A stretch of DNA of 64,000 nucleotides from a virus: the IMG/VR virus record IMGVR_UViG_3300036792_000218, positions 28,370 through 92,369 of that record; one strand, given 5' to 3'. Positions 7,927 to 61,155 of this stretch are shown piece after piece. The notes below the pieces were generated by a model. The model ran no database searches. It saw only the letters and a list, made by a program, of their open reading frames with translations, and had not been told where the DNA came from. A program made the position numbers and the translations under genes. Each line of letters opens with the position of its first letter. The stretch's first letter is position 1.

Positions 7927-9069
7927 TTGCGCGGCATCTTGGACGACCTGTTCGGGCCGGGCACGTGGGGCACCGGCGGAAACATGGTCGCCTGGGTGCT
8001 GTGCGGGGCGATCGGCGGTGCCGCGGCGTTCCTGCTGCGGCACAAGATCGGGAAGCGGCTGGCCGCGTGGTGGGCGTTCCACCACGGGCCGCACGCCGTT
8101 GCCCAGCACCTGGAAGCGCTGCGCCTGCACGAGGCAGCGAAGGCGGCCCGGCAACCAGGCCGGGGTGACAAAGGGAACGGGGGAGTCATGACAGCAAGCG
8201 CGCAGGGCTTCGACATCAGTTCGTATCAGCCTCGGCTTGACGTGGCCGCGATCCGCGCGGCCGGGCACGACTTCGGGTGGGCCAAGGCGACGAACGGTCT
8301 CAGCGGCGAGGATCCGGAGTTCGCGGCGTCGTGGGAGACGCTGCTCACCGCCGGCGTGCACCGCGGCGCCTATCACGAGATGACCGGGGCTGACCCGGTC
8401 GCGCAGGCCCGTGACTTCGTCGCCGTGGTCGCGGGGCGCGGAATCCGGCCGGGTGACATGCTCGCGATCGTCGCCACCGACTACCAGGTCAGCGGCCGGA
8501 ACCTGAAAGCGTGCTGCGACGAGGTCGCGCGGCGCGTCGGGCCGCACTGCCCGGTGCTCGTGTACGCGTCCACGGGCAAGCTCCCGGCCCTCGGCGAGGC
8601 CTCCGCCTACCCGCTGTGGGCGGCCGAATGGCGGGCGAGCGCCCCCACCGACGTCGCCCCGTGGCACAAGTGGGTGTTCTGGCAGTACGCGCCCGGCGGC
8701 GGCGCGGACGGCGGCGACAAGGACGCGTTCAACGGCACCGCGGCCGACCTCAACGCGTGGATCGCTTCGTACACCAAGACCGCCCCGGCGCCCGTGCCGG
8801 TCCCGCCGAAGCCGGTTGTCAAGGAAGCCGTCTCGGTGTCCATCACGTCGGTACAGAAGGGCAGCACCGGCCAGGCGGTGAAGAACTGGCAGGGGCTCCT
8901 GATCGCCCGCGGGTACGACCTCGGGACCAGCGGCCTGCGGAAGGACGGGGTCGACGGCGTGTTCGGTGACGGGACCGACACCGCGACCCGCCACCTCCAG
9001 GCGTCGGCGCACCTCCCGGCTACCGGGGTCGTCGACAAGGCGACGTACACCGCCGCCCTGCACACCTGA
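7927..9069 (+). CDS. Endolysin: GH25 muramidase plus C-terminal peptidoglycan-binding domain; main start probably ATG 8188, with an in-frame N-terminal membrane extension from 7927
   Basis: GFDISSYQ, WAKATNG, RGAYH, LWAAEW, WVFWQY, DKDAFNG (GH25); GSTGQAVKNWQ..L..RGY..VDGVFG..T..LQ (PG_binding_1). Confidence 0.9.
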   Translation: MRGILDDLFGPGTWGTGGNMVAWVLCGAIGGAAAFLLRHKIGKRLAAWWAFHHGPHAVAQHLEALRLHEAAKAARQPGRGDKGNGGVMTASAQGFDISSYQPRLDVAAIRAAGHDFGWAKATNGLSGEDPEFAASWETLLTAGVHRGAYHEMTGADPVAQARDFVAVVAGRGIRPGDMLAIVATDYQVSGRNLKACCDEVARRVGPHCPVLVYASTGKLPALGEASAYPLWAAEWRASAPTDVAPWHKWVFWQYAPGGGADGGDKDAFNGTAADLNAWIASYTKTAPAPVPVPPKPVVKEAVSVSITSVQKGSTGQAVKNWQGLLIARGYDLGTSGLRKDGVDGVFGDGTDTATRHLQASAHLPATGVVDKATYTAALHT

Positions 9070-10127: not shown

Positions 10128-10980
10128 TCCCTGCCGCCTTCCTGAACGCGGCGAGCGCCGCCGGGTTGCCGTCGATGCTCCACTGCTTGTTGCCGGGCAA
10201 GTCGAACAGGACCACCGCCGCGAGGTGGCCAGCTTTTGCGCCGGCGAACAGGCCCCTGATCTTGGCTGCCTGCCCTGCGGCAGGTGCGGCCGCGGTTTCC
10301 GACAGGATCACCGGGCCGCCCCAGAACTTGCGCACCGCGGCGACCGTGGGCGCTATCCGGTTGCCGTAGGTCATGGACGCGGTGTCGAAATACCCATCGA
10401 GGCCGACCATGCCGACGTAGGCCTGCCCGGGCCACCAGTCGGCGGGCGCGCTGACACCGGGGCTCGCCACGTTCACGGTCCACAGCCAGGCCACGTTCGC
10501 CGCCCCGGCCTGCCGGAACAGCGTCACGACGTGCTGCCAGGCGTCGACGTAGAGCGCCGGGGTGACGTGCTTGTATCCCCACGTGTACCAGGGGCCGTTC
10601 ATTTCCGGGGCGAACCCGAGGATCAGCGGCTTGCCGTAGGCCTTCGCGTCCGCGGCGAGGTTGCGGAGCCGGTCGTCGTACTTCCCGGCGGCGACGCCGG
10701 CGAGCGGGGTGCGGCGCGGAAGGACCTGCACCAGCGGCTCGGCGGGGCCCGCGAACGCGACGGGCAGCGGGTCCCAGAGGGGAATGTAGTGCTCGACGAT
10801 CGCGGGCCGTACCCCGGTCGCGGTCACGAACGCCTGGTAGCTGGAATCAGCGGCGCCGACCAGGAGGTGACCCGGCCGCAGGGTCGAGGCCACCGGGCGC
10901 GGCGCGGCGGTCACGGCCGAGCAGGCGGCCAGCAGCGCGCACAAGGTGAGCACCGCCAGCGGGCGGCTGATCCTAGGCAT
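10120..10980 (-). CDS. GH26 glycoside hydrolase (beta-mannanase-like), lipoprotein
   Basis: GFAPEMNGPWY (acid/base Glu), WWPG..YV.MVGLDGY, ILSETA (nucleophile Glu); signal peptide with lipobox LAAC. Confidence 0.85.
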   Translation of the reverse strand: MPRISRPLAVLTLCALLAACSAVTAAPRPVASTLRPGHLLVGAADSSYQAFVTATGVRPAIVEHYIPLWDPLPVAFAGPAEPLVQVLPRRTPLAGVAAGKYDDRLRNLAADAKAYGKPLILGFAPEMNGPWYTWGYKHVTPALYVDAWQHVVTLFRQAGAANVAWLWTVNVASPGVSAPADWWPGQAYVGMVGLDGYFDTASMTYGNRIAPTVAAVRKFWGGPVILSETAAAPAAGQAAKIRGLFAGAKAGHLAAVVLFDLPGNKQWSIDGNPAALAAFRKAAGSA

Positions 10981-27149: not shown

Positions 27150-27448
27150 CGGTGGTTCCCCCTGTGAGCGCCGTTGCTTACAAGGACAACATTATAGCTA
27201 GCTAACAGTGTTGTCAATTTAAATGGGCGTGTCGCGCGCCCCACGAGCACCGACAGCCAGAACACCTCCGCAACCTCCGCAACCTTCGCGCCGACCACCC
27301 GCTCCGCCCGCGCCAACTGCCACGCCGCGTCACGCTCCCGCCACTCGACTACCGACCGCAGGTAAGCGCCCCACGCGGCCTGCTGCGCCCCCGCCACGCC
27401 CGCCTCCGCAGACCGGCACAAGCGCAGCAGCCCCTCGTCGCTGATCAC
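27146..27448 (-). CDS. Hypothetical protein; frame reads through the promoter (in-frame TTA at 27203-27205)
   Basis: GTGA overlap at the start. Confidence 0.45.
   Translation of the reverse strand: MISDEGLLRLCRSAEAGVAGAQQAAWGAYLRSVVEWRERDAAWQLARAERVVGAKVAEVAEVFWLSVLVGRATRPFKLTTLLASYNVVLVSNGAHRGNHR
27173..27234 (-). promoter_or_regulatory. Conserved early promoter/operator copy 3
   Basis: TTGACA-17-TAATGT-TGTCCTTGTAAGCAAC; GACAC 11 bp upstream. Confidence 0.85.
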
Positions 27449-42560: not shown

Positions 42561-43067
42561 GTGACCGCACCACCGGCGCCCACCACCGGCGCCCTCATCC
42601 GCGCACTACGCCTCAGCGCCACCCCGAAGCTGAGCATGGAAGCCGCCGCCGCCCGCGCCGGCATGAGCGCGAGCCACTGGGGCGCGATCGAGCGCGACAA
42701 GGCCACAGGCCCCGAGGGGCAGCCCCTCCGCGCACCCGCCGCCACCATCGCCCGCATGCTCGCCGTCCTGCCGCCCCTCACGAGCGACCAGCAGGGCGCA
42801 CTCGAACAGGCCCGCCCCGACGACGCCGCCGAGATCCTGGCCGCGACCGCAAGCCAGCCCGGCGCGCCCGTCGGCACGGGCGGCGACGACCGGCTGATCG
42901 AGGCGCTGATCGCCAGCCGCCCCGACAGCGAGTTCCTGGGGTTCCTGTGGGGCGAGCTGGGCAACGACATGAAGCTCGCCCCGCGCGAGCGGCGCGTGCG
43001 CCGTGTCCTCGAATGGGTGGAAAGCCACCCGGTGAACGAGGACGGCCGGGAAAGCAAGACAGGCTGA
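42561..43067 (+). CDS. CI-like XRE repressor
   Basis: GALIRALR...LSMEAAAARAGMSASHWGAIE; divergent from the Cro-like gene. Confidence 0.7.
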   Translation: MTAPPAPTTGALIRALRLSATPKLSMEAAAARAGMSASHWGAIERDKATGPEGQPLRAPAATIARMLAVLPPLTSDQQGALEQARPDDAAEILAATASQPGAPVGTGGDDRLIEALIASRPDSEFLGFLWGELGNDMKLAPRERRVRRVLEWVESHPVNEDGRESKTG

Positions 43068-43171
43068 CCAGCGGACATTCACCACTGTTGATGCGATGCG
43101 CTTAAATCTTGTAACTTACAGTGATTCCCGGTAACCTTTCGTGACCCAATTAGGCCGGCGGAGGTAACCGA

Positions 43172-43999
43172 ATGGACGACGCAGCAGAACAGGTACAGCA
43201 CCTAATCGGGCTCATCCAGGAAACCCGCAGCCTGTACTTCCAGCTAGCCACGGCAATCGCCGACGACACCGCCCCCGAAGTCGTCTACGCGGCCAGGGCC
43301 GTCCACGAGATGCGGGGCGCCCTCGCCAAGAAAGAGGTCGGCCTGGAGACCTACGCCGCCGCGCACCGCAACGGCCGCCGCGAGAGAGTCATGGCCGACC
43401 TGAAAAAGGCATGGGACGCCGGCCGACAGTCGGGCATCGCCGAGGGCATCCGCCGCGCCAACCTCCGCGAGCAGGCCCGCAGCATCGGCTTCCCCCGCCT
43501 GGCCCTCGTCCGCACCCTCCCCTGGCTGAATAAGGGCTTAACCGCGACCAGCCCGGACACCCGGCCGGCCGGCCAGTCCCGCCGCAGGACATCCCCCCAG
43601 CCGCCGCGGTCCCACGCCCGCACGTCCGGCACCTCGAGCACGACGTCAAGCCCCGCCCCCGCCGCCCACCCCGCCAGCACCTCCGGGGAGTGCCCGAACA
43701 TCTCGTCCCCGGCCAGGACCCCCACCTCCCCGGCGCGCTCCGCGGCCGACATCGCCACCTGCGACCCCGCCGGCAGCGCCTCCGCGTGCGCCGCCGCGAG
43801 CGCCGCCCCGTCCTCCGCGCCCAGCCGCCACGACCCGATGCCCCACTGCACCTGCAGCGGGCCCGCCAGGCCGGCCATCGCCGCCCGCCTGACCATCTGC
43901 GCGGGGTTCGCGATCGTCGCCCGGAACGCGACGGCGCGCGGGTCGCCGTCAAGCGCGAGCTGGCGCAGCGCGGCCACGACCGGCGACGTGCTCGGGTAA
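43172..43999 (+). CDS. Hypothetical protein; coding signal appears to end near codon 123 (TTA 43538-43540) although the formal stop is at 43999
   Basis: RBS GGAGG; sequence after 43540 is antisense to the methyltransferase-like gene. Confidence 0.5.
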   Translation: MDDAAEQVQHLIGLIQETRSLYFQLATAIADDTAPEVVYAARAVHEMRGALAKKEVGLETYAAAHRNGRRERVMADLKKAWDAGRQSGIAEGIRRANLREQARSIGFPRLALVRTLPWLNKGLTATSPDTRPAGQSRRRTSPQPPRSHARTSGTSSTTSSPAPAAHPASTSGECPNISSPARTPTSPARSAADIATCDPAGSASACAAASAAPSSAPSRHDPMPHCTCSGPARPAIAARLTICAGFAIVARNATARGSPSSASWRSAATTGDVLG

Positions 44000-44262
44000 C
44001 CGAACCGTGCCGCCGGCGACGCGGCCGCCGCCAGCCGGTGCGGCGCGTCGCCGCGCACGGGGAACCCCGTCCCGCAGATCAGGACCGACCCGATACCGCC
44101 GAGCACGGCCAGTTCCGCCGCCCGCGCGCTGAACCTGTCGGCCCACGTCACCATGCGCCGCACCCCCGGCAGCGCCGCCGCCAGTTCCCTCTCAACGTCG
44201 AATGCGATGTTCCCCCCTCTTAGCGCGTCGACCACCAGGGCAATCTTCGTTGAATCCCCCAC
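43351..44262 (-). CDS. Divergent actinomycete SAM-dependent methyltransferase (Methyltransf_19-like); domain ends near TTA at 43531-43533
   Basis: VDALRGG....DVERE, GIGSVLICGTGFP...PH..A...P.ARFGY, LPAGSQVAMS, GLVAVKP terminus. Confidence 0.55.
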   Translation of the reverse strand: MGDSTKIALVVDALRGGNIAFDVERELAAALPGVRRMVTWADRFSARAAELAVLGGIGSVLICGTGFPVRGDAPHRLAAAASPAARFGYPSTSPVVAALRQLALDGDPRAVAFRATIANPAQMVRRAAMAGLAGPLQVQWGIGSWRLGAEDGAALAAAHAEALPAGSQVAMSAAERAGEVGVLAGDEMFGHSPEVLAGWAAGAGLDVVLEVPDVRAWDRGGWGDVLRRDWPAGRVSGLVAVKPLFSQGRVRTRARRGKPMLRACSRRLARRMPSAMPDCRPASHAFFRSAMTLSRRPLRCAAA

Positions 44263-44558
44263 GCGTCTCCCCACCCCCGCCAAAACCGGCTCCCTTTCAT
44301 AATTACAGCAAATAACGGCCGGGCGGTGACCCCCGAATGGGTGACACCGCCCGGCCGGGGAAAGCACCATCGGAGCCCGCGCCTGGGACAATGCCCGGTG
44401 CTTCCCTTCCCCGCACCCATTGGGTGGGAGTGCGGGAATCATCAAATTACCGCCGCCACGGCAAATAGCAGAAGATTGCACAGTGCACCTGAACGTGCAC
44501 GCGCAATTTCACCCCCGCCTGTTCCCGGCCCGGCCTTAACCGGGCCCCGGCCCTGATT

Positions 44559-45314
44559 TCACCGCCCGCCGGCGGCCGCCGCCTGCGGCTCCTGCCGCCG
44601 CATCCACGCCGCCAGCCGCAGCCGCGCGCCTTCCCTGACGCCCCCGGTGCCCGCCTTCGCGTGAACGCGGGCCAGGTGACCGCGCACCGTCCCCTCGGCG
44701 ATCCCCAGCTCCCCGGCGATCTCCGCCGCCGTCATCCGCCGCCGCGCGTACAGCACCGCGACCTCCCGCTCACGCGGCGTCAGCGCGGTACCGAGCAGCC
44801 CGGCCGACCTCGACGGCGCGCACGCCTTCGCCAGCAGGTACGCGTGATGCAGCCTCAGCAGCCCGCCGCCCGCCCCGAGGGCACTGTCAGCCCGCTCCCA
44901 GAAGTCAGGCGCCTGCCACAGCAGCCCCGTCTCCGCGTGCCTGACCGCCGTGAGGGAAACACAGGTCAGGCCCGCCAGGTCCGGCTGGCTCATCCCCGCC
45001 GCCCGCCGCCTCGCGGCGAGCCCCGCCGACAGCGCGTCACCCGCCGCCACCAGGACCCGCACCGCAGGGTCAGCCGCGACCAGCGGAACACGGAACTGCC
45101 CCTGCCCGCCCGCACGCCGGGTAAGCGCCCCGGCGCCGGCCAGGTACCGCAGGCCCCGCAGGCAGGTCAGCGTCGAGTACCCCGTGGCCCGGCTCAGCTC
45201 CTCGCCGCCCGGCGCGGCATCCCCCGGCCGCAGGGAGCCGTCACGGATGCGGGCCCGGACCATGTCCGCGACGACCAGGTACTTCCTCGTCCCCGGCGCA
45301 GCCGCCTCCCCCAT
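44559..45314 (-). CDS. Triple-HTH regulator: GntR + XRE + LuxR DNA-binding domains
   Basis: YLVVADMVRARIRDGSLRPGD (GntR); LAARRRAAGMSQPDLA..VRHAETG (XRE); LTPREREVA..IAGELGIAEGTVRGHL (LuxR). Confidence 0.75.
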   Translation of the reverse strand: MGEAAAPGTRKYLVVADMVRARIRDGSLRPGDAAPGGEELSRATGYSTLTCLRGLRYLAGAGALTRRAGGQGQFRVPLVAADPAVRVLVAAGDALSAGLAARRRAAGMSQPDLAGLTCVSLTAVRHAETGLLWQAPDFWERADSALGAGGGLLRLHHAYLLAKACAPSRSAGLLGTALTPREREVAVLYARRRMTAAEIAGELGIAEGTVRGHLARVHAKAGTGGVREGARLRLAAWMRRQEPQAAAAGGR

Positions 45315-45544
45315 CAGCCGGCGTCCCACACCAGCGCCTGCCCGCTGACGTCGCTGAGCACCCGCCGTAGCCGCGCCTCGGTCCTGGCGTCGACCGTGAT
45401 CGGCCGCGGGTCGTCCCGCCGCCACGTCGCCCCGACGCGGACCGCGTACAGGCGCCCCTGGTCCGACTCCCACACGTGCCAGCCGGGGAACTCCGCCTCG
45501 ATCGCGGTGAGCCGCGCGTCCCTCGCCACCGCCGCGCCGGTCAC
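45314..45544 (-). CDS. Small actinomycete protein (FPGWHVW.SD.GR.YA.R family)
   Basis: Recognisable motif; coupled. Confidence 0.6.
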   Translation of the reverse strand: MTGAAVARDARLTAIEAEFPGWHVWESDQGRLYAVRVGATWRRDDPRPITVDARTEARLRRVLSDVSGQALVWDAG

Positions 45545-45735
45545 TGCGCCAGCTCCCCGGCGGGCAGCCTCATGCCGAGGCTGAACAGGGTGAACGCGGA
45601 CTCGAACGGCGTCCCCTTCGGCAGCGCCAGCCACGCGCCGGGCAGCCGGTGAAAGTCCAGGTGCGGGTAACTCGCGCGCAGGCTGGCCAGCAGGTCGCTT
45701 TCCTGTTCCGCCCGCTCCGGGCCCGTCTCGATCAC
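45541..45735 (-). CDS. Small hypothetical protein
   Basis: Coupled ORF. Confidence 0.5.
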   Translation of the reverse strand: MIETGPERAEQESDLLASLRASYPHLDFHRLPGAWLALPKGTPFESAFTLFSLGMRLPAGELAQ

Positions 45736-46001
45736 GCGGGCCACTGGCTGTCCGCCCAGTCGCACAGGCCGCCGAGCAGCTTCTCCGTGTGGTCACGCGG
45801 CGCGCCGTCCTCGGTCCACGTCAGCACGTGCCCGGTCACGCCCGACGGCTGCTTCCACGCCAGGTCAGGCACGCGGCCCTTCAGCCGTTCCAGCAGCGCC
45901 TCCATGCGGGCGACGTCGTCGCACCAGGTGCCCGTGTCGACGAACGGCACCGGCCCCGGCGCGCCGAAGCCCGCCAGCAGGGCAACGCGCGACCGGATCA
46001 T
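45732..46001 (-). CDS. Small hypothetical protein
   Basis: Coupled ORF. Confidence 0.5.
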   Translation of the reverse strand: MIRSRVALLAGFGAPGPVPFVDTGTWCDDVARMEALLERLKGRVPDLAWKQPSGVTGHVLTWTEDGAPRDHTEKLLGGLCDWADSQWPA

Positions 46002-46270
46002 GACGCGACCGCCCGGGCGCTGTCGACCAGGCCGCCGAGAGCCTGCGGCGTCGGCGCGGTCAGCAGCGTCACGATCCTGCCGTCCCACACCGACCAGAAC
46101 TCGCCGCGGCCCGGATCGAACCCGAACGTGTACCGGCCGCCGTACAGCAGCCGGAGACGGCTGAGTGCCTGCCTGGTGTCCCCGCCGGCCAGCGTCGCCA
46201 GCTCAGCCCAGTCAACGACGCCTGAAATGCCAGCAGCACGTGGCACCGCCTCTGCGTCCATTCCCGTCAC
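45998..46270 (-). CDS. Small hypothetical protein
   Basis: RBS GGGAG; first gene of an operon. Confidence 0.5.
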   Translation of the reverse strand: MTGMDAEAVPRAAGISGVVDWAELATLAGGDTRQALSRLRLLYGGRYTFGFDPGRGEFWSVWDGRIVTLLTAPTPQALGGLVDSARAVAS

Positions 46271-46329
46271 TCCCAGGTACGTAGTCCTCGGTCAGAGTGA
46301 CGCAAACGTAAAGCAGGAACTCGCCCGTA

Positions 46330-46347
46330 ACTTTCCTACAGGAAAGT
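46330..46347. promoter_or_regulatory. Perfect palindrome ACTTTCCT-AC-AGGAAAGT (operator candidate)
   Basis: Lies upstream of the 46270 operon, immediately after the XRE regulator gene. Confidence 0.55.
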
Positions 46348-46369
46348 CTCGGGGAATTGATCGAAAAAT

Positions 46370-47575
46370 TTAGATCAAGCCCATCCGCCAGGCCAGGCCG
46401 CGCAGGTCCCGGCCGCCGGCCTTTCTCCGCGCCTCGTCGAGCATGCTCCGCACCAGCTCCCGCAGCAGGGGACTGTTCAGCACCTGCGCCGGGGAAAGGT
46501 GCTCGGCCCGCTTCAGCGCCGCGGCGGCGCGCCCGTCTTTCCCCTGCATGGCGAACGCCCGCCCCTGCTCCATCAGCAGCGCGCCCCGCCGGTTGTTCGA
46601 CGCGAGCGCACGCGGCTCGACCTGGGACGCGTGCTCAAGCGCCCGCTCCGCGTTCCCGGCCTCAACCGACAGCGACGTGCGCCACACCCCGACGTTGCTC
46701 GCGCCGAACAGCTCCCACGCGTCGGGCTCGTCGCCGAGCGGTGCGGCGATCCTCGCGGCCTCCGCCCCGTGGTCATCGGCCCCCGCGTGGTCGCCGCTGA
46801 CCGCGCAGGCCAGCGCCGCGCTCAGCCTGAGCATCCCGTAGACCTCCATGGCCATGCGGGACTGCCCGGCCAGCGGCTCGAACCTGTCGGCCGCGTCCGG
46901 CATCGTCATCAGGGCACGGGGCTTGTTCGTCGAGCTCCGGGCGTGCGCCATGCCGTACGCGGCCGCCGCCTCCCAAACCGGGTCACCGAGCAGCGCCGCG
47001 GCCTGCCTGCCCCGCTCCGCGGCAACCCACGCCAGGTCCGGCTGTGCCGCGTACCGCAGCGTGATCACGGCGGTGGCGGTGGCGGGGACGAGCAGCCGTA
47101 GTGCTTCCTCCCGGTCGTGGCCGTTCGCCGTGCCCGCCTGCACCTCAAGCTCGCCGATCAGCGTGGGGAGGATCGGCAGGAGCGCGGCATAGTCCGACCA
47201 GCGCAGCGCCCGGTCCGCCTGGTCGTTCAGGTCCCGCAGAAAGGGGACCGGCCGCGCGGCGATGTCCGGCGGGTCGTCGGGGGACGCGTCGAGCAGCGCG
47301 GCGCGGAGCGGGTTCAGGGGCCACGCGTCGCGGCCGGCCTGCACTTCAGGGGCGGGCTCGCCGAGCAGCGTGTCCGCGCTGACGTCCAGCACCCCGGCCA
47401 GGGCGGCGATGTCGGCGCGCTTGTCAAGCGGTATGCGCCCGTTCTCGACCTTCGACAGCCAGCCTTCGGAATGCCCGACAAGGCCCGAGGCCTGCGCCAG
47501 CGTCAGGCCTTTCGCGCGGCGTGCCATCCTGACGGCCAGCCCTATGCTGACGCGATCCGTGCTAATCTCGTTCAT
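46370..47575 (-). CDS. XRE-family regulator with helical/TPR-like C-terminus (Streptomyces type)
   Basis: IGLAVRMARRAKGLTLAQ..GWLSKVENG; FGASNVGVW; AEHLSPAQV..P. Confidence 0.85.
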   Translation of the reverse strand: MNEISTDRVSIGLAVRMARRAKGLTLAQASGLVGHSEGWLSKVENGRIPLDKRADIAALAGVLDVSADTLLGEPAPEVQAGRDAWPLNPLRAALLDASPDDPPDIAARPVPFLRDLNDQADRALRWSDYAALLPILPTLIGELEVQAGTANGHDREEALRLLVPATATAVITLRYAAQPDLAWVAAERGRQAAALLGDPVWEAAAAYGMAHARSSTNKPRALMTMPDAADRFEPLAGQSRMAMEVYGMLRLSAALACAVSGDHAGADDHGAEAARIAAPLGDEPDAWELFGASNVGVWRTSLSVEAGNAERALEHASQVEPRALASNNRRGALLMEQGRAFAMQGKDGRAAAALKRAEHLSPAQVLNSPLLRELVRSMLDEARRKAGGRDLRGLAWRMGLI

Positions 47576-47668
47576 CGAAAGACCCCGACGTTTTGAGTGA
47601 AAGCTTCGCAACTCTCACGATAACCGCCGGGGTCTAGTCATGTGTAATTCGTGATGATCTCGTCACAC

Positions 47669-47708
47669 CGAAACGGCCCCGCCCCTGACCTGGGGCGGGG
47701 CCGTTTCG
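47669..47708 (-). terminator. Intrinsic terminator after the GntR gene
   Basis: CGAAACGGCCCCGCCCC-tgacct-GGGGCGGGGCCGTTTCG. Confidence 0.75.
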
Positions 47709-47732
47709 CGTTTCCAGGCCGGTCGGCCGTGG

Positions 47733-48221
47733 TCACGCCCCGCGTACCACGGCGGCGTCCACGGGCAGCCCGAGCGCCTTGCGGACCCGCAGCGCGACGG
47801 TAACCGCGCCGTCAAGGGTCCCCGACGTGACTGCCAGCAGGAGCGTGACCGCGCCGCCCTCGCCGTCCTCCACGGTCCCGCTCGGAACCGCCGGCTCGTC
47901 CCTCGTCGCCGCGGCCAGGCCGGCGTGCAGCGACGTGAGCGTGATGCCCTCAGGCGCGGGGTAGCTGGCGAACTCGACGCGCCACGCCCGCCGGGCAAGC
48001 ACGTACGTTCCCCGTTTAGGCACCAGGCGGACTAGTCCCTCGTCGGCCAGCAGCCGCACGCCTTCCTGAACGGTCCCGAGCGCGACCGACGCGTACGTGC
48101 GCCGGAATTCCTTCACCAGTTCCGTACCGGGCGGCAGCATGCCGTCTTCGTCGAAATCACCGGCGATCACCTTCCGCCGCAGCTCCCGCGCTATCAGTTC
48201 ATGCAGGGCGGGACCTGACAC
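47733..48221 (-). CDS. GntR-family regulator (KorA/TraR/KorSA-like)
   Basis: IARELRRKVIAG..LP....L...TVQEGVRLLADEGLV..PKRGTYV; divergent from the tra operon. Confidence 0.8.
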   Translation of the reverse strand: MSGPALHELIARELRRKVIAGDFDEDGMLPPGTELVKEFRRTYASVALGTVQEGVRLLADEGLVRLVPKRGTYVLARRAWRVEFASYPAPEGITLTSLHAGLAAATRDEPAVPSGTVEDGEGGAVTLLLAVTSGTLDGAVTVALRVRKALGLPVDAAVVRGA

Positions 48222-48333
48222 GCGGCTCTTTCCCCGTTTCGCTCGCACAGTGTTCCGCCAATCGTAGGGCCGCCTTCTCCGGATCAGAAGCACGGGTTGA
48301 CAACGCGCCGCGCCTATCCCAGTATGGTCTCAT

Positions 48334-48347
48334 ACCTGTTAACAGGT
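48334..48347. promoter_or_regulatory. Perfect 14-bp palindrome ACCTGTTAACAGGT (GntR operator candidate) in the tra promoter
   Basis: Downstream of TTGACA (48297) and TATGGT; between the GntR gene and the rightward operon. Confidence 0.65.
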
Positions 48348-48409
48348 CAGAGCAACCCGAACGAGGAACGGAGACCACCGGCCATGCGAGACAACCCGAG
48401 GCGGTCACG

Positions 48410-49042
48410 GTGACCGCCGTCGCCGCGCTGCGGCACTACGCCCGCACCAGGCGCGCCCTCACCGTCCTCGCCGAGGGGACGCAAGAGCACGCGTACGCCG
48501 TGAACGACCTCATCGACGCCTGGGAGGCAATCCCCGTGCAGCTGCTCTGGGTCGCCAGGCACGTCGACCGGCACACCTACCGGCAGACCGGGGCAGTCAT
48601 GTACGCCCCGGTCTACCGCACCCGCCTCGCCGGCATCCCCGCCGCGCTGCGCCGTTACGCAGCCGCCGAACGGGCACTGTGCGAGAACTCCATCACCGAG
48701 TACGCCGCAGGTACCGACGAGGAAACCCCCGAGTACCTGCACGCCAACAACGAGGCCGCCGCCGCTCACGCGTCCGTCCCGTGGTGCCTGCTCTGGCTTA
48801 CCGAGCTGATCAGCCGCCGCATCGTCCGCGAGCTCGACTACTTCAACCGGACCGGGCAGCCGCGCGAGGCCGGGTCCCCGGTCGCCTGCTGGCTCGGCTG
48901 GCTGCTGGTTACCGCCGCTGTCGCGGCAGGCGCCTGCCTCATCACGAGCGCCGTCACCCAGCCCGCAACCTGCACTGCCCCGTCCCCGGTGCCGTCCGTG
49001 TTCACCCCGGCGCCTGTCGCGGCCCCGCAGGTGACGCCGTGA
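48410..49042 (+). CDS. Membrane-anchored hypothetical protein (first gene of the tra operon)
   Basis: RBS GAGG; C-terminal TM. Confidence 0.55.
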   Translation: MTAVAALRHYARTRRALTVLAEGTQEHAYAVNDLIDAWEAIPVQLLWVARHVDRHTYRQTGAVMYAPVYRTRLAGIPAALRRYAAAERALCENSITEYAAGTDEETPEYLHANNEAAAAHASVPWCLLWLTELISRRIVRELDYFNRTGQPREAGSPVACWLGWLLVTAAVAAGACLITSAVTQPATCTAPSPVPSVFTPAPVAAPQVTP

Positions 49043-49329
49043 CCACGCTGACCCCTGCCGGCTGGCGCGCCCGCGCGGCCTGCCGCGGCAAGGACCCCGA
49101 GCAGTTCTTCGGCCCCGACGGCGAGACACCCGCACAGCAGGCAGTCCGCGAGGCGCAGGCCATCGTGATCTGCGCCCAGTGCCCCGTACGCGCCACCTGC
49201 CTGCAATGGGCCATGGACACCAACACGAAGCAAGGCGTCTGGGGCGGCACGGGCGAGGCCGAGCGCGCCCGCACCCGCCGCCAGAGGACCCGCCACGCCG
49301 CGAAGGCACGCCGGAGGGCAGCCGCATGA
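49039..49329 (+). CDS. whiB: WhiB-family Fe-S transcription factor
   Basis: WRARAAC..DPEQFF, ICAQCPVRATC, GVWGG. Confidence 0.95.
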   Translation: MTTLTPAGWRARAACRGKDPEQFFGPDGETPAQQAVREAQAIVICAQCPVRATCLQWAMDTNTKQGVWGGTGEAERARTRRQRTRHAAKARRRAAA

Positions 49330-49568
49330 TCGTCAAGGTCGCCGCCGTCGTCCTCCTGACCGCCCTCTGCATGGTCAGCGTTCACCTGCTCGCCGTCCTG
49401 CTGCTCGCCGTGGTGGCGCTCGCGGCCCTGCTGATCGTCCACCTGCTGATCGTCGCCGTCGTCACCGTCGGCACGGTCCTGCTGGCCCTGGCGTGGGCGA
49501 TCAGCCAGGCCGCGACCGAAACCGGCTGGCGGGTCGTCCCCTGCGTACTGAACGGGGCCACGGCATGA
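49326..49568 (+). CDS. Small hydrophobic membrane protein
   Basis: About 60 consecutive hydrophobic residues. Confidence 0.55.
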   Translation: MIVKVAAVVLLTALCMVSVHLLAVLLLAVVALAALLIVHLLIVAVVTVGTVLLALAWAISQAATETGWRVVPCVLNGATA

Positions 49569-50182
49569 GCACCGAACCGGAGTACATGAGCCGCACCGAC
49601 CGGGAACGCTGGCAGGCCGCCCGCACCTTGACCGACGTCGGCAACCTCATGGCCGACTGGATACAGGGCAAGATCACCACCCGGCCCGGCTACTACGGCC
49701 CCACCGACCTCGACCAGCCGGACACCCTCGTCCCGCTGCTCGCCAGCCTGTGCCGGGACGGGTTCGTCACGCACCAGTCGCAGGAAGGCTTTTCCGGGTG
49801 GGGCTACGACGGCGCGTGGTGGGTCCAGCACGCTTTCGTGGAGGCGTTCACCACCGAGGACGTCGTTGACCGCCTCTACGAGACCGCGTCGTCCCGCCTG
49901 ATCGTCATCAGCCACGACCCGGCCACACTGCCCGCCTGGCGCTACCGGCGAGACAGCGACTTCACCGCCACCTACCGCATAGGCCGCCCCTACACCGGCG
50001 CCGGCAGCTCACTGCCCCGCCGTCACATCCGCGACCCCCACATCGGGTTCGGGGCGTGCGGCAAGGAGGCCACCGACGCGCTGTGCTCCGCATGGCAGGT
50101 CACGGTCGCCGACCTCGCGCCAGGACCCGAGACGTTCCTGTGGGACTTCCTGTCCGGCCTCGACCTGGAGCCAGGCGAATGA
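49565..50182 (+). CDS. Conserved actinomycete hypothetical protein (DUF6919-like)
   Basis: LMADWIQG..RPGYYG, GFVTHQSQ.G, QHAFVEAF, WQVTVAD. Confidence 0.5.
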   Translation: MSTEPEYMSRTDRERWQAARTLTDVGNLMADWIQGKITTRPGYYGPTDLDQPDTLVPLLASLCRDGFVTHQSQEGFSGWGYDGAWWVQHAFVEAFTTEDVVDRLYETASSRLIVISHDPATLPAWRYRRDSDFTATYRIGRPYTGAGSSLPRRHIRDPHIGFGACGKEATDALCSAWQVTVADLAPGPETFLWDFLSGLDLEPGE

Positions 50183-52632
50183 GCGTGATCCCCGCGCCGC
50201 GCCGTGGCCGCCGGCCCCGTCCCGCCGGTGACGACGACACGCCGCCGCTGAGCGACGCGATCGAGCGACTGCTGCCCGGTGACCCCGAGCCCCCGGCCGA
50301 CCCGCCCGCAGAGCCCGCCGACGCCGAGCCCAGCCCCGGCACAGGGCAGGAGGAGCCAGCCGCGCCCGCCGCGGACGACGACGACCCGCCCGAGCCGAAA
50401 CCCGGCCGCCCCGGACTCGAAGAAGCGCAGCGCGCCGCGATCATCCCCGGTATCCCCGGCCAGCGCTGGCAGGCCGTCAAGGACAGCCTCGAACTCGCCG
50501 GCTACCGGACGGCGTTCCACGGCATACGCGCCGTGCCCGTGTACGCGCCCGGCTCGCTCGTCTACGCGGTCCGCGGCGGCGCCCGCCTCGGCCTCCGCTA
50601 CGCGCTGTGGATGGACGTCACGCACCTGCGGGTCGTCATCTCGCAGTCCCTGGCCCGCGGCGACGCCGGAAACGGCGACGTGCTCCGCGCCCACAACGAC
50701 AGGGAACGCACCAAGAAGGGAAACCGGAAACTCGCCGCCGGGACCGCCGCCACCGCCGCCCTCACGTCCTACGTGCTGGCGGAGGGAACCCCGCCGGCAG
50801 TCCAGATCGGCGCGGCCGCCGCCGCGTTCCTCACCCTGGTCGCGTTCGGGAAGCCGGACGGCAGCCCGTTCCTGCCGAGGGCGATCCTGCCCCCGAACTA
50901 CCAGCCCCCGAGCTTCGAGCTGATCCGCGAGGCGCTGGTAGCGATCATCCCGGCCATCAAGACGCACGTCGCCGCGAAGGGTGACCTTGACTGGGTCAGC
51001 GACGTGCACCGCGACGGCGACGGTTGGGCCGTCGAGCTCGACCTGCCCAAGGGCGTCACGGCTGAGCTGATCATTAAGAAGCGCAAGGAACTGTCCTCCG
51101 CGCTCCGCCGGCCACTCAGCGCCGTGTGGCCCGAGGGCGTGCCCGGCGAGCACGAGGGGCGCCTGTTCATCTGGATCGGCCGGCATGACTGGGCGAAAAA
51201 AAAGCTCGTCCCGCACCCGCTGCTCAAGGCCGGCACCCCCGACTTCTTCGACCTGGTCCCGTTCGGCACGATGCCACGCGGCAACGCGATCACCGTCCCG
51301 CTTTTCCAGACGAACTGGCTGTTCGGCGGGGCCATGGGCTCCGGCAAGACCAGCGCCATCCGGACCCTGCTCGCCGCCGCCGCGCTCGACACCGTCGTCG
51401 ACCTGTGGACCCACGAGTTCAGCGGCAAGGGCGACCTTGAGCCGTACGCCCAGGTCAGCTACCGCTACGTGTCCGGCCTGGATGACGAGGCGATCGCCTA
51501 CGCCGCCGAGTCCGTCAAGATGCTCAAGGCCGAGCTGCAGCGCCGCCAGGCGATATGGAAGAAGATCCCGCGCGAGAAGCGAACCGAAGCGCACCTGACC
51601 CGCGAGATCGCGATGGCCGACAAGCGGCTGCGGCCCATCGTCGCGTCGTTTGACGAGTGCCATAACGCGTTCCAGCACCCGACGTACGGCAAGCAGATCC
51701 AGACCGACCTTGAGTGGGTCATGCGGATCGGCCGGGCGTACGGCATCGTCGTCATCCTCGGCACCCAGCGGCCCGGCGCGGACTCGATCCCGGTCATCAT
51801 CACCGCCGTCACCGTGGCCCGCTGCTGCCTGAAGGTCAGCGACCACACGACCAACGACATGATCCTCGGCAGCGGCTCGTACAACAAGGGCCACGACGCC
51901 ACCGTGTTCCGCCTGCCGTACACGGACGCGGGCTGCTGCTGGCTCAAGGGCGTCGGCGACACGATCGCCCCGAAGATTTATTATCTCAACGATCCCGCGA
52001 CGCTGAAGATCGCGAACCGGGCCCGCGCGCTGCGGGAGAAGGCCGGGGTCCTGTCCGGGTACGCGCTCGGTGAGGAAGAGGACCAGGGCGAGCGGAACCT
52101 GCTCGGCGACGTCCACGCGGTGTTCGGGCCCGGTGAGCGGTTCCTGTACTGGCCGACGATCGCCGAGCGGCTCGCGGAGGGCTACCGGGGGACGTACACG
52201 GGCGTCACCGGTGACGGCGTGTCGGCCGACGTCCGCGAGCTCGCAGACATCGACTCCGACAACGGCCGGGAACCGGGCGGCAAGGTCCTCACCGGCCTGA
52301 AGCGCACCACGATCTCGCTCGCCGTCAACGGCGGCCCGGACGACCCCGACCAGGAAGCCGGCGACGACCCGCCCGCGCCCCCGCGGCCCGAGGCGGACAC
52401 CGAGCTGCTGACCGCCGCGGCGGAGATGGTCATCAGGGAGCAGTGGGCGTCAACGTCGACCCTCGGGCGCAAGCTCCGCCTCGGCCACGACCGCGCCGGC
52501 ACGCTCATGGACGAGCTCGCGGGCCACGGCGTCGTCGGCGAGCCGGGCGACGACCCGAAGGTGCGCGCCGTGCTGAAGACCGAAGACGACCTCGATGCCG
52601 TACTCGAGGCGATCAGGGGCGCGGACTCATGA
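50179..52632 (+). CDS. traB: TraB-like FtsK/SpoIIIE DNA translocase (actinomycete conjugation)
   Basis: N-terminal TMs; RDGDGWAVELDLP.G; Walker A GAMGSGKT; Walker B SFDECH; GRAYGI..ILGTQRP; MILG; TraB-type wHTH plus a terminal FtsK-gamma domain. Confidence 0.9.
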   Translation: MSVIPAPRRGRRPRPAGDDDTPPLSDAIERLLPGDPEPPADPPAEPADAEPSPGTGQEEPAAPAADDDDPPEPKPGRPGLEEAQRAAIIPGIPGQRWQAVKDSLELAGYRTAFHGIRAVPVYAPGSLVYAVRGGARLGLRYALWMDVTHLRVVISQSLARGDAGNGDVLRAHNDRERTKKGNRKLAAGTAATAALTSYVLAEGTPPAVQIGAAAAAFLTLVAFGKPDGSPFLPRAILPPNYQPPSFELIREALVAIIPAIKTHVAAKGDLDWVSDVHRDGDGWAVELDLPKGVTAELIIKKRKELSSALRRPLSAVWPEGVPGEHEGRLFIWIGRHDWAKKKLVPHPLLKAGTPDFFDLVPFGTMPRGNAITVPLFQTNWLFGGAMGSGKTSAIRTLLAAAALDTVVDLWTHEFSGKGDLEPYAQVSYRYVSGLDDEAIAYAAESVKMLKAELQRRQAIWKKIPREKRTEAHLTREIAMADKRLRPIVASFDECHNAFQHPTYGKQIQTDLEWVMRIGRAYGIVVILGTQRPGADSIPVIITAVTVARCCLKVSDHTTNDMILGSGSYNKGHDATVFRLPYTDAGCCWLKGVGDTIAPKIYYLNDPATLKIANRARALREKAGVLSGYALGEEEDQGERNLLGDVHAVFGPGERFLYWPTIAERLAEGYRGTYTGVTGDGVSADVRELADIDSDNGREPGGKVLTGLKRTTISLAVNGGPDDPDQEAGDDPPAPPRPEADTELLTAAAEMVIREQWASTSTLGRKLRLGHDRAGTLMDELAGHGVVGEPGDDPKVRAVLKTEDDLDAVLEAIRGADS

Positions 52633-52799
52633 TGTTGCGCACCCGCCGCGAGCCACGCAACAGCCCAACAACGTGTTGGGCTAGCACAACACGCGCTGAC
52701 CTGCGGAAACGTCAGATTGTCCGATTCAGCGCAACACGGCCGAGGGCCGCACAACACCAGCACAACACGCTGACCTGCGGAAACACGGTTCGCGCAACA
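52633..52799 (+). repeat. clt-like locus: cluster of 8-mers GC(A/G)CAACA directly downstream of traB
   Basis: Exact copies at 52684, 52729, 52749, 52760, 52792; variants at 52655 and 52663; inverted copies at 52633 and 52674; two GCTGACCTGCGGAAAC (52695, 52769). Confidence 0.7.
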
Positions 52800-52857
52800 A
52801 ACCGGCGGAACGGGCCCCCACGGGCCGCCCTAGGGACAACCACGATGGGACAGGGGC

Positions 52858-53433
52858 TTGAGCCGGATCACAGTCAGCGTCTGGCGCTGTGGCGGGTGCG
52901 GGAAGAAACGCGGGCTGCGCCACACCTGCCCGGGCGGCCGCGGCCGCAGGACACGCGACCGCATCGCGCTCGGCGTAGAGGTCCGCTGCCCGCACTGCCG
53001 CAAGCGGTCACTGAACCCGCTCACCCACACCTGCTCACCGAAGTCCGACTTCCGCAAGCGCCAGGCCGCCCACAAGCGCCGGGTCGCAGCCGAGAAACGC
53101 AAGCAGAAACGGAAGCTGTCCGCCGCACGGAAACGGGCCCGCGTCAAGGAACGCAGGCGCCTGGCAGCGGAGAAGCGCAAGCAGGCAGCGGCTGCGGCCG
53201 CAGCGAAGCGGAAGGCCGGGGCCCGCGCCCGGTCACACGACAAGACCCGGCACGACCCCGAGACCTGCACGGACCCCTACTGCACGAGCTTCCGCTGCCG
53301 CACCTACAAGGGCGGCAAGGAAGCCGGCAAGGCCGAGGGCCGCGCCGAGGGCTATGCGGCGGGCTACGCCGAGGGCTACGACAAGGGCTTCGCCGACGGG
53401 TTCGCCGCCGGGCAGGCCTCCGCGGCCAAGTTA
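52858..53433 (+). CDS. Basic Zn-finger protein; no in-frame stop at the apparent end (TTA 53431-53433), formal ORF runs to 54237
   Basis: CGGC..HTC and CPHC..HTC, Lys/Arg coil, G..EG..EGY repeats; the next gene's RBS follows the TTA. Confidence 0.55.
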
Positions 53434-53443
53434 GGAGATCCCA

Positions 53444-53785
53444 GTGAGCGTGATCATCACGATCCTGATCACCGTCCTGATCGCGGTGCCCGCGCACGTG
53501 GCGCTGTTCCTGCTGACGCACCGGCTCATCGCCGCCGCGCTCGCGGTGCCCGCGTACGTGGTGCTGTGCCTGGCGCACCCGGTCCACAAGTGCCCCCGCT
53601 GCCGCGGGGCCAGGGTGGTCAAGAAGGGCAACAGTCACCCCATGTGCCGCTGGTGCAAGGGCCAGGGCAAAACCAAGCGGCTCGGCGGCCACCTGGTCCA
53701 CCGCGTGTTCTGGGACCACGTCGGCCCCTGGATCAGGGACAAGTACCTGGATGCCGCTCACCGGCTGCGGGACGGCCAGTCATGA
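53444..53785 (+). CDS. Membrane protein with DnaJ-type Zn finger
   Basis: Two TMs, CPRCRG..CRWCKG.G; typical of AICE/plasmid transfer regions. Confidence 0.65.
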   Translation: MSVIITILITVLIAVPAHVALFLLTHRLIAAALAVPAYVVLCLAHPVHKCPRCRGARVVKKGNSHPMCRWCKGQGKTKRLGGHLVHRVFWDHVGPWIRDKYLDAAHRLRDGQS

Positions 53786-54237
53786 GCGGCGGCAAGTTCG
53801 AGGGCGTCGTCTCGGGCACCTGGTCGACCACGAGCAGCGGGTGGTGGGTAAAGGCCGTGGCCGCCGTCGCCGTCGTGGGCGCGCTGGACGGGTACCTGTG
53901 GACCCTCCTGCGGTTCCTCGCCGTGCTGCTCACCGTGGTCCTCGTCCTGTTCACCGCGCTGGCGGTACCCGCGGCCGTCTGGATGCGCCGGTGGACCAGC
54001 CGCCAGCACCAGCAGTTCAACCGGCAGCTCGCCGCGCTCCCCGACGAGCCGCGCCAGGCCGTCAAGGCAGCCGCGCCGCCCGTGATCCAGAACTTCTACG
54101 GCGGAACCAACGTGTTCATGCTGCCCGGATCACAGCTCCCGGCCGGAATCAGCGAGAACAGCCAGGTCATCCGGGCTTACCCGCTCCGCGACGCCGTCAC
54201 CGACACCACGGAGGGAGGTCCACGCCATGAGAACTGA
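53782..54237 (+). CDS. Membrane protein (Spd-like)
   Basis: Two TMs; ATGA overlap. Confidence 0.55.
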   Translation: MSGGKFEGVVSGTWSTTSSGWWVKAVAAVAVVGALDGYLWTLLRFLAVLLTVVLVLFTALAVPAAVWMRRWTSRQHQQFNRQLAALPDEPRQAVKAAAPPVIQNFYGGTNVFMLPGSQLPAGISENSQVIRAYPLRDAVTDTTEGGPRHEN

Positions 54238-54337
54238 CGACTGCGGCGCCTGCGGAGGATCGGGCACCGAACCGAACCCGTACTTCCCGCAGAAGACACG
54301 CCCGTGCGGCACCTGCCACGGCAGCGGCTGCAAGTAG
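54227..54337 (+). CDS. 36-aa DnaJ-type Zn-knuckle microprotein (not in ORF track)
   Basis: MRTDDCGACGGSGTEPNPYFPQKTRPCGTCHGSGCK; RBS GGAGG. Confidence 0.65.
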   Translation: MRTDDCGACGGSGTEPNPYFPQKTRPCGTCHGSGCK

Positions 54338-61059: not shown

Positions 61060-61155
61060 GACCCGCGCAGTCAATCCACCAGAACCACCCGGCCCCGTTG
61101 TCATAATGACCACGTCGGGACCCGTGTATCCCGCGCAAGGCAAAACGGGGGTGAC

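What the first reader, a model, noticed from the sequence alone, without database searches (positions are those of the whole stretch)
43531..53433. In-frame TTA codons mark apparent gene ends where stop codons are missing (UUA as a conditional stop or stall?)
Seen: two convergent genes (43172+ and the methyltransferase-like minus gene) have no stop where they meet. Each hits an in-frame TTA inside the 10-bp palindrome TAAGGGCTTA (43531-43540) and then runs on as antisense of the other. Gene 52858+ likewise has no stop; its coding signal ends at TTA 53431, directly followed by the next gene's RBS, and the frame continues into the 53782 membrane gene. ORF 27448- also meets a TTA (27203) inside the downstream promoter. 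In a manual scan I found no mid-gene in-frame TTA in the other genes, though I may have missed some. Established: UUA is the rarest codon in these hosts and depends on the developmentally regulated bldA tRNA in Streptomyces. Inference: UUA may work here as a terminator, stall or +1-frameshift signal (TTAG and TTAA give immediate +1 stops in two cases), with read-through or fusion products only when tRNA-Leu(UAA) is abundant.
Basis: partly seen in the sequence, partly recalled or inferred. Interest (0 to 1): 0.7.

Follow-up and report, generated by a model that had tools for sequence, protein, structure and literature searches.

The report
Rare TTA codons replace stop codons
In this complete high-GC soil phage, three genes have no stop codon where they end and carry the very rare leucine codon TTA there instead; in the two that could be checked, relatives have an ordinary stop at that exact spot, so TTA probably ends (or nearly ends) translation here, though the mechanism was not shown.

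Summary
The window lies in a complete 92-kb tailed phage with terminal repeats, 71% GC, from a soil metagenome. A six-frame coding map finds only three ORFs that run far past their coding signal into other genes (154, 61 and 267 codons). In each, the switch falls exactly on an in-frame TTA (43538+, 43533-, 53431+).

Homologs of the methyltransferase end at ...AVKP, and the closest homolog of gene 52858+ ends at ...SAAK. In both cases TTA stands exactly where they have a stop. An unrelated metagenome contig (L002) repeats TTA-GGAGG-GTG at the same junction where five sister loci have TAA, TAG or TGA. Related phages add three more orthologous stop/TTA swaps.

A separate assembly of the run, at about 100x depth, gives identical sequence, so this is not an assembly slip.

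The fourth case (27205-) is weak: that TTA belongs to a repeated promoter element. A +1 shift onto a stop is not general, because the base after TTA is A, T, G, G, G, C or C.

The likely host family carries a tRNA gene with a UAA anticodon, and one relative phage has TTAs that look internal to genes. I therefore favour a slowly decoded, leaky end signal over a full code change.

This scan has noted the same pattern in other high-GC phages, often more strongly than here.

The parts
43172..43537 (+). Gene A: orphan 122-aa ORF, coding part up to the codon before TTA
   Evidence: GC3 frame plot and Viterbi map end coding at 43535. No homologs were found.
43538..43540 (+). In-frame TTA at the end of gene A. 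The frame then runs 152 codons antisense through the methyltransferase gene, to 43999.
   Evidence: TTAA gives TAA in the +1 frame. No homolog is available to fix the true C-terminus.
43534..44262 (-). Gene B: SAM-dependent methyltransferase (PF04672), 243 aa up to ...GLVAVKP
   Evidence: Pfam hit 7.5e-11. The database's own call, P0004, is 303 aa including the 60-aa tail. Homologs P0005 and P0007 end at AVKP.
43531..43533 (-). In-frame TTA (CCC TTA TTC) exactly where homologs of gene B have their stop. The frame runs on 59 codons antisense through gene A, to 43351.
52858..53430 (+). Gene C: 191-aa Cys-rich, basic protein just after the traB-like translocase (first gene of a conserved three-gene Spd-like set)
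   Evidence: 27 homologs, mostly 177-191 aa. The closest, P0009 (75% identity, 191 aa), ends ...ASAAK like the window.
53431..53433 (+). In-frame TTA at the stop position of gene C. It directly abuts the GGAG ribosome-binding site, and its first base lies 13 nt before that of the next gene's GTG. The frame stays open for 267 more codons, to 54237.
   Evidence: In sister loci the same 13-nt spacing holds, with TAG, TAA or TTA directly before GGAGG.
53444..53785 (+). Gene 2 of the set (membrane plus CxxC protein). It is read in a wrong frame by any read-through from gene C.
53782..54237 (+). Gene 3 of the set (membrane protein). It shares gene C's frame, so read-through would fuse the two.
27203..27205 (-). 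TTA in the tail of ORF 27448-. Weak case: it lies in the spacer of a repeated TTGACA...TATAAT promoter/operator element, 11 codons past the end of the coding signal, with TGA 18 codons later.

Best explanation
What I propose: point changes (TAA to TTA, or TGA to TTA) have put the rarest leucine codon where the stop codon of several phage genes used to be, and the genes still work. UUA is read so slowly in the host that most ribosomes finish there. The completed protein would be freed by a rescue or drop-off route, and only a minority of ribosomes would read through into a junk tail. UUA would then act as a leaky end signal that depends on tRNA supply. If the host's UAA-anticodon tRNA is regulated like bldA in Streptomyces, the balance between ending and read-through would follow the host's growth stage.

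Shown here:
- TTA sits exactly at homologs' stop positions.
- This recurs independently in other DNA.
- The downstream frame is not coding.
- No backup stop lies nearby.
- No +1 stop is required.

Inferred, not shown:
- Slow decoding of UUA.
- Release of the peptide at UUA.
- Dependence on the tRNA.
For: 1. Only three ORFs in the genome overshoot into other genes, and each switches exactly at TTA.
2. Methyltransferase homologs P0005 (72% identity) and P0007 (65%) end ...AVKP, the residue before the window's TTA.
3. Gene C's closest homolog P0009 ends ...SAAK, the residue before TTA.
4. The independent metagenome locus L002 has CGG TTA GGAGGT..GTG where L003-L008 have TGA, TAG or TAA at the same junction. 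Spacing to the next start is 13 nt in the window, L002, L005, L006 and L008.
5. Swaps in related phages found through the capsid gene:
   - Gene X ends KKLGL-TAA in G002 but KKLGL-TTA plus 137 codons in G001.
   - Gene Y ends HQP-TAA in G001 but WPR-TTA-CAG-GCC-TAG in G002.
   - A small gene ends ...PKIVG-TTA in G002 against TGA, TGA, TAA and TGA in G000, C12, G001 and G003.
6. The tails after TTA are antisense or wrong-frame readings of other genes.
7. An identical contig at about 100x depth argues against an assembly slip.
8. Stop usage in G000 is TGA 107, TAG 21, TAA 12, and 3-4 genes end at TTA. That is the same order as TAA, as expected if TAA/TTA changes are nearly neutral.
9. Published background: stalling at UUA, speculation about a UUA-G end signal in the adpA upstream ORF, and UUA-led bypassing in phage terminases (PMC10732093). 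tmRNA tagging at UUA has also been discussed (PMC2635970).
Against: - No direct evidence of termination or stalling. There are no protein or RNA data, and the host is unknown.
- The usual fate of ribosomes stalled on a rare codon is tmRNA tagging and degradation (PMC2635970, PMC10732093), which would destroy the protein rather than release it.
- Gene A has no homolog, so its true end is not fixed. A single T-to-A change at 43532 could have removed a TAG of gene A and the TAA of gene B together.
- Only 3-4 of about 145 genes are affected here, and they are accessory genes, so mild damage might simply be tolerated.
- The absence of internal TTAs is not statistically meaningful.
Confidence: 0.5

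Rival explanations
1. True sense-to-stop reassignment: in these phages or their hosts UUA is recognised as a stop codon (by a release factor, or as an unassigned codon) and is never leucine.
For: - TTA aligns exactly with stop codons in homologs in at least six cases.
- No nearby backup stops.
- No internal TTA in 27,567 codons of this genome.
- A relative phage contig carries 31 tRNA genes, including many for A-ending codons, but none for UUA.
- Unchecked notes of this scan report the same pattern, more strongly, in other high-GC phages.
Against: - A tRNA gene with anticodon UAA is present in 20 of 61 genomes of the likely host family, and in 60 of 81 genomes of the class. Seven of the class genomes are flagged unpublished.
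- Relative G003 has TTAs with coding signal on both sides: a tail-fibre-like ORF at 39403, and two TTAs in a two-helix membrane ORF at 61106 and 61115.
- The phage has no RF-1 domain protein and no tRNA.
- Zero internal TTAs is within expectation.
Confidence: 0.2
2. Ordinary stop-loss mutations in dispensable accessory genes. TTA is read as leucine, and the genes make long aberrant proteins or are decaying. TTA has no special role.
For: - The affected genes are accessory: an orphan, a methyltransferase and a spread-like gene.
- High-GC DNA keeps alternative frames open by chance. In L005 the frame is open for 228 codons after a normal TAG.
- One A/T change at 43532 could explain both convergent losses.
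Against: - Every clear stop-less end found is TTA, although only 2 of 23 single-base stop-to-sense changes give TTA.
- The same swap arose repeatedly in different lineages.
- Coding sequence upstream is intact and conserved up to the last residue.
- The variant is fixed at about 100x depth.
Confidence: 0.15
3. Programmed +1 frameshift at the hungry UUA onto an overlapping TAA or TAG (U-UAA, U-UAG). This resembles what was speculated for the adpA upstream ORF.
For: TTAA follows at gene A. TTAG follows at gene C, at 27205 and at L002. At gene C and L002 the TTA abuts the ribosome-binding site. For the published analogy see PMC10732093.
Against: - The methyltransferase (TTAT), G001 gene X (TTAC) and G002 gene Y (TTAC) have no +1 stop. 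Reading on from TTAT by eye, the +1 frame stays open for about 56 codons.
- A purine after TTA in 4 of 7 sites is what chance gives.
- No stimulatory RNA fold is present.
Confidence: 0.08
4. Sequencing or assembly error at the stop codons.
For: The genome comes from a metagenome assembly. The only run found may be its own source.
Against: - A second assembler's 57.6-kb contig at depth about 103 is identical, with no variants listed.
- The same feature occurs in unrelated assemblies: L002, G001 and G002.
- The changes are substitutions at stops, not homopolymer indels.
Confidence: 0.02

Closest known systems
UUA in the upstream ORF of Streptomyces adpA (Antonov et al. 2023, PMC10732093)
   Same: A rare UUA sits at the end of an ORF, a few nucleotides before the next start codon and next to its ribosome-binding site, followed by G so that UAG lies in the +1 frame. 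The authors report ribosome pausing there and speculate that it ends translation. Gene C and L002 match this layout (TTA-GGAG-N-GTG).
   Different: There an ordinary in-frame stop follows two codons later, overlapping the start. Here none follows for 216-267 codons. These are full-size protein genes rather than a leader ORF, and other sites (TTAT, TTAC) lack the +1 stop.
UUA-led coding gaps (translational bypassing) in the large terminase of Streptomyces phage phiHau3 and prophages (Smith et al. 2013, as cited in PMC10732093)
   Same: A high-GC actinophage uses the near-unused codon UUA as a non-standard decoding signal tied to scarcity of its tRNA.
   Different: There the same protein resumes 7-10 nt downstream. 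Here homologs end at the TTA and nothing of the protein follows, so this is an end, not a hop.
bldA (tRNA-Leu UAA) control of TTA-containing genes in Streptomyces
   Same: It rests on the same rare codon and the same idea of tRNA-limited decoding. The likely host family has a tRNA gene with a UAA anticodon.
   Different: Classical bldA targets carry TTA inside the coding body and need the tRNA to make the protein. Here TTA replaces the stop, so the tRNA would spoil the product rather than enable it. The host and its tRNA regulation are unknown.
Organelle codes with UUA as stop (NCBI table 23, Thraustochytrium mitochondria; from my own knowledge and the tool's table list)
   Same: TTA stands where stop codons belong.
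   Different: That is a full reassignment in a tiny organelle genome. Here only about 2-3% of genes end in TTA, a matching tRNA gene exists in the likely host family, and a relative phage seems to use TTA internally.

Membership tests
Sense-to-stop genetic code (UUA = stop) | TTA occupies positions where homologs have TAA/TAG/TGA | tested here: met
Sense-to-stop genetic code (UUA = stop) | TTA never occurs inside gene bodies | tested here: inconclusive
   0 of 27,567 codons in this genome, but only 1.6-4 expected. Relative G003 has three apparently internal TTAs.
Sense-to-stop genetic code (UUA = stop) | No tRNA that reads UUA in the system | tested here: not met
   The phage has no tRNAs. However, 20 of 61 genomes of the likely host family hold a 74-77-nt tRNA gene with anticodon UAA. 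The actual host is unknown.
Sense-to-stop genetic code (UUA = stop) | Release factor able to read UUA | not testable with these tools
   No RF-1 domain in the phage. Host unknown.
UUA-led translational bypass (phiHau3 terminase type) | Short frame-breaking insert starting with TTA, after which the same protein continues | tested here: not met
   Homologs end at the TTA. The downstream frames belong to other genes.
adpA-uORF-type UUA-G end signal | UUA followed by G (a +1 UAG) just upstream of the next start, with an in-frame stop within two codons | tested here: inconclusive
   UUA-G next to the ribosome-binding site is met at gene C and L002. The nearby in-frame stop is not met. The methyltransferase site is TTAT.
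bldA-dependent gene (classical) | TTA inside the coding body, so that full-length product needs tRNA-Leu(UAA) | tested here: not met
   TTA lies at the C-terminal end, not in the body.
bldA-dependent gene (classical) | Host tRNA-Leu(UAA) scarce or developmentally regulated | not testable with these tools
   Host uncultured. Only the presence of the gene in the family was shown.
Programmed +1 frameshift (prfB type) | Slippery P-site codon, slow A-site codon, Shine-Dalgarno-like stimulator upstream, productive +1 frame | tested here: not met
   The ribosome-binding sequence lies downstream, not upstream. There is no +1 stop at 3 of 7 sites and no structure.

The most novel reading that the evidence does not exclude
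UUA is a genuine fourth termination signal in a lineage of high-GC soil actinophages or their hosts. This would be a sense-to-stop change of the genetic code outside organelles. TAA and TTA would then be interchangeable, and one triplet could close two convergent genes, as in the G001/G002 pair.
Probability: 0.2. Interest if true: 0.9.

Novelty: new variant of a known kind. Interest (0 to 1): 0.62.

Why it matters
If UUA ends translation in these phages, three things follow:

- Standard gene callers mis-annotate their genes. The public call for the methyltransferase is 303 aa instead of 243, and gene C is called as a 459-aa fusion.
- The rare-codon biology of actinomycetes would gain a new role: a stop that depends on the supply of one tRNA.
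- The question of what happens to a ribosome at a hungry UUA would become testable with natural, compact sequences such as TTA-GGAG-N6-GTG.

It would also give phages and conjugative elements a simple way to sense the host's growth stage. If instead it is only tolerated stop loss, it still shows a striking codon-specific bias.

Tried and rejected
P0010 (266 aa) has Leu at the junction followed by a wrong-frame tail, but its codon is unknown.
- The plasmid and phage collections gave no useful matches.
- Gene A has no homologs. Gene D has none in the related phages.
- No RNA holder was listed for the stretch.
- RNA folding around the sites gave z-scores from -1.1 to +1.1, so no structure was found. 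The terminator scan showed nothing convincing at the junction.
- The phage has no RF-1 domain and no tRNA.
- A covariance-model search first suggested that the Streptosporangiaceae lack tRNA-Leu(UAA). Candidates were capped in that search, and pattern searches then overturned it by finding a short UAA-anticodon tRNA. I dropped the 'unassigned codon' idea.
- The MAG that holds the relative phage shows no such tRNA, but it also lacks Leu(CAA), so it is incomplete.
- An ortholog-end survey among five related genomes gave 57 stop/stop pairs, 2 TTA and 15 other sense codons. The 15 others appeared, on inspection, to be short natural extensions or real added domains, not junk run-ons. The test is small, and some of my offsets were imprecise.
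- Read-through from gene C stays open into gene 3 in both TTA loci, against one of six loci with normal stops. This is too few to mean anything.
Full report
**What the DNA is.** The window is bases 28370-92369 of a single 92,369-bp record. The source classes it as a virus with direct terminal repeats and 100% estimated completeness. It is 70-74% GC throughout. PHROG matches identify a large terminase, portal, major head protein, head-tail adaptor and a 1,204-aa tape measure. The window also holds an FtsK/TraB-like translocase at 50056-52632. This is therefore a complete tailed actinophage that carries a conjugation-like module, assembled from a soil metagenome. It encodes no tRNA and no RF-1 domain protein.

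- Gene 43172+ reads ...CTG AAT AAG GGC TTA ACC.
- The minus-strand gene reads ...GTT AAG CCC TTA TTC AGC.
- Gene 52858+ reads ...GCG GCC AAG TTA GGA GAT CCC A GTG.

Third-position GC confirms the reading frames and shows the coding signal stopping at these points.

I trained a codon model on the long ORFs of the genome and ran a seven-state Viterbi segmentation (non-coding plus six frames). The results:

- About 145 ORF ends were mapped.
- Only three ORFs continue far beyond the end of their coding segment into other genes, by 154, 61 and 267 codons.
- In all three the switch lies within 1-3 nt of an in-frame TTA (43538+, 43533-, 53431+).
- Other tails of 13-40 codons stay in intergenic DNA, end in normal stops, and look like real C-termini.

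No in-frame TTA occurs in 27,567 coding codons. Only 1.6-4 would be expected from the usage of TTG, CTA and CTG, so that absence alone proves nothing. Stop usage is TGA 107, TAG 21 and TAA 12.

The fourth example (ORF 27448-, TTA at 27205) is weak:

- Its coding signal ends about 11 codons before the TTA.
- A TGA follows 18 codons later, overlapping the next start.
- The TTA is part of a repeated TTGACA...TATAAT promoter/operator element that contains a TTA in several copies.

**Is it an error?** The only public run that holds the stretch is a soil metagenome that may be the source. Logan's separate assembly of it gives one 57.6-kb contig at depth about 103, covering 43000-54300 with 0 differences, 0 gaps and no listed variants. 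The same feature also appears in unrelated assemblies (see below). Assembly error is therefore very unlikely.

**Homologs end where the TTA is.**

- The minus-strand gene is a PF04672 methyltransferase.
- Its own database entry is 303 aa, that is 243 aa plus a 60-aa tail. Homologs at 60-72% identity are 247-274 aa long. Two of these (P0005, P0007) end at ...GRVSGLVAVKP, the residue encoded just before the window's TTA.
- Gene 52858+ belongs to a family of mostly 177-191-aa proteins. The closest member, P0009 (75% identity, 191 aa), ends ...GFAAGAASAAK, again the residue just before the TTA.
- Gene 43172+ has no detectable homolog, so its end cannot be fixed this way.
- For that convergent pair, a single T-to-A change at 43532 would have destroyed a TAG of the plus gene and the TAA of the minus gene at once. 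That remains possible for the plus gene. For the minus gene it is simply the TAA-to-TTA change.

**Recurrence elsewhere.**

- A scan of JGI metagenome contigs with the gene C family returned seven loci with the same three-gene arrangement.
- Six of them carry an ordinary stop at the end of gene C (L003-L008). In L005, L006 and L008 the stop (TAG or TAA) stands directly before GGAGG. The first base of the stop lies 13 nt before that of the next start in L005, L006 and L008, and 16-19 nt in the others.
- L002 (59% protein identity, a different sample) has ...GCC CGG TTA GGA GGT CCT G GTG, with the same 13-nt spacing as the window. Its frame then runs on for 216 codons.
- Protein P0010 also reads Leu at this junction, followed by a wrong-frame tail.

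Relatives of the phage itself were found through the major head protein at 70-83% identity and their records were fetched. They lack genes B and C but add more swaps:

1. A convergent pair shares one triplet. Gene X ends KKLGL-TAA in G002 but KKLGL-TTA in G001, with 137 further open codons. Gene Y ends HQP-TAA in G001 but WPR-TTA-CAG-GCC-TAG in G002. An A/T flip of the middle base decides which gene gets the stop and which gets the TTA.
2. A small gene ends ...LIPKIVG-TTA in G002. The same column is TGA in G000, TGA in C12, TAA in G001 and TGA in G003.
3. In G001 a gene ends ...KRRRR-TTA with the next gene's ATG overlapping it (TTATG), where TAATG or TGATG would be usual.

**What argues against the simple alternatives.**

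- *+1 shift onto a stop.* The base after TTA is A, T, G, G (window sites), G (L002), C and C (G001, G002). Three sites have no +1 stop.
- *RNA structure.* No RNA fold stands out at any site.
- *Open frames.* Long open frames after the TTA are not in themselves meaningful. After the normal TAG of L005 the frame is open for 228 codons.
- *Random stop loss.* Only 2 of the 23 single-base stop-to-sense changes give TTA, yet every junk run-on found begins at TTA.

**Is UUA unreadable in the host?**

- A relative of the phage (66% head-protein identity) lies on a 102.6-kb contig of a Streptosporangiaceae MAG.
- That contig carries 31 tRNA genes, many for A-ending codons, but none for UUA.
- A covariance model built from two host Leu tRNAs found CAG, GAG, UAG and CAA species but no long Leu(UAA) tRNA in family genomes.
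- Pattern searches then found a short, 74-77-nt tRNA with anticodon UAA in 20 of 61 family genomes. A control pattern for Leu(CAA) hit 35 of 61; by eye about 27 of those are canonical tRNA-Leu(CAA).
- Long or short UAA-anticodon tRNAs were found in 60 of 81 genomes of the class. Seven of those class genomes (G071, G079, G088, G094, G096, G100, G107) are flagged unpublished, and the class count rests partly on them.

UUA is therefore probably decodable in the likely host family. In addition, relative G003 has TTAs with coding signal on both sides: one in a linker of a tail-fibre-like ORF, and two that lie three codons apart in a small membrane ORF with two predicted helices. These points weigh against a complete reassignment.

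**Interpretation.** The best-supported reading is that UUA, being very slowly decoded, works as a leaky end signal that depends on tRNA supply. TAA or TGA stops can then drift to TTA without killing the gene. This is inference: nothing here shows stalling, release or read-through.

The closest published cases come from Antonov et al. 2023 (PMC10732093):

- The UUA-G at the end of the adpA upstream ORF, where pausing was seen and termination was speculated.
- UUA-led bypassing in phiHau3-type terminases.

Neither describes TTA replacing the stop codon of full-size genes. Two full-text searches found no paper that does.

Earlier unchecked notes of this scan report the same pattern, often much more frequent, in other high-GC phages. 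My tests on this DNA agree with them on the observation. They are more cautious on the claim that TTA is never read as leucine.

Noticed in passing
window 49870-54237: A complete tailed phage with terminal repeats carries an FtsK/TraB-like translocase followed by a conserved three-gene Spd-like set. The same set occurs on non-phage-looking metagenome contigs (L002-L008). This looks like a phage/conjugative-element hybrid.
   Followed up: partly
window about 20944, 24000, 27178, 60661, 60998, 63306 (minus strand); also genome 2706 and 3828: A repeated AT-rich promoter-like element (TTGACA..TATAAT followed by GTTGTCyyTGTAAGC) sits within an inverted repeat GACAAC/GTTGTC. It is probably a shared operator for one regulator.
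   Followed up: no
L053 (G005:C12:63000-69500): A related phage contig inside a Streptosporangiaceae MAG has an array of 31 tRNA genes. These include unusually short 'Leu' tRNAs (GAG, CAA), but none with anticodon UAA.
   Followed up: partly
L083, L089-L097 (actinomycete genomes): Many Actinomycetes genomes hold a short (74-77 nt, no long variable arm) tRNA with anticodon UAA and discriminator A, while others hold the long Leu-type form. Whether the short form is a leucine tRNA is unclear. The class-level count includes genomes flagged unpublished.
   Followed up: partly
G003 (L017/L018): 61106 and 61115, and 39403: There are two in-frame TTAs three codons apart in a small ORF with two predicted membrane helices. 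Another TTA lies in the Gly-rich linker of a tail-fibre-like ORF. These may be tRNA-gated genes or further end signals.
   Followed up: partly
G001 10842-10844 / G002 8572-8574: Two convergent genes in the same codon register share one triplet that is TAA for one gene and TTA for the other. The orientation is flipped between the two phages.
   Followed up: yes
window 43351-44262 and 52858-54237: Public protein calls for these genes include the junk tails: 303 aa for the methyltransferase, and a 459-aa fused ORF for gene C. Databases therefore hold wrong products.
   Followed up: partly
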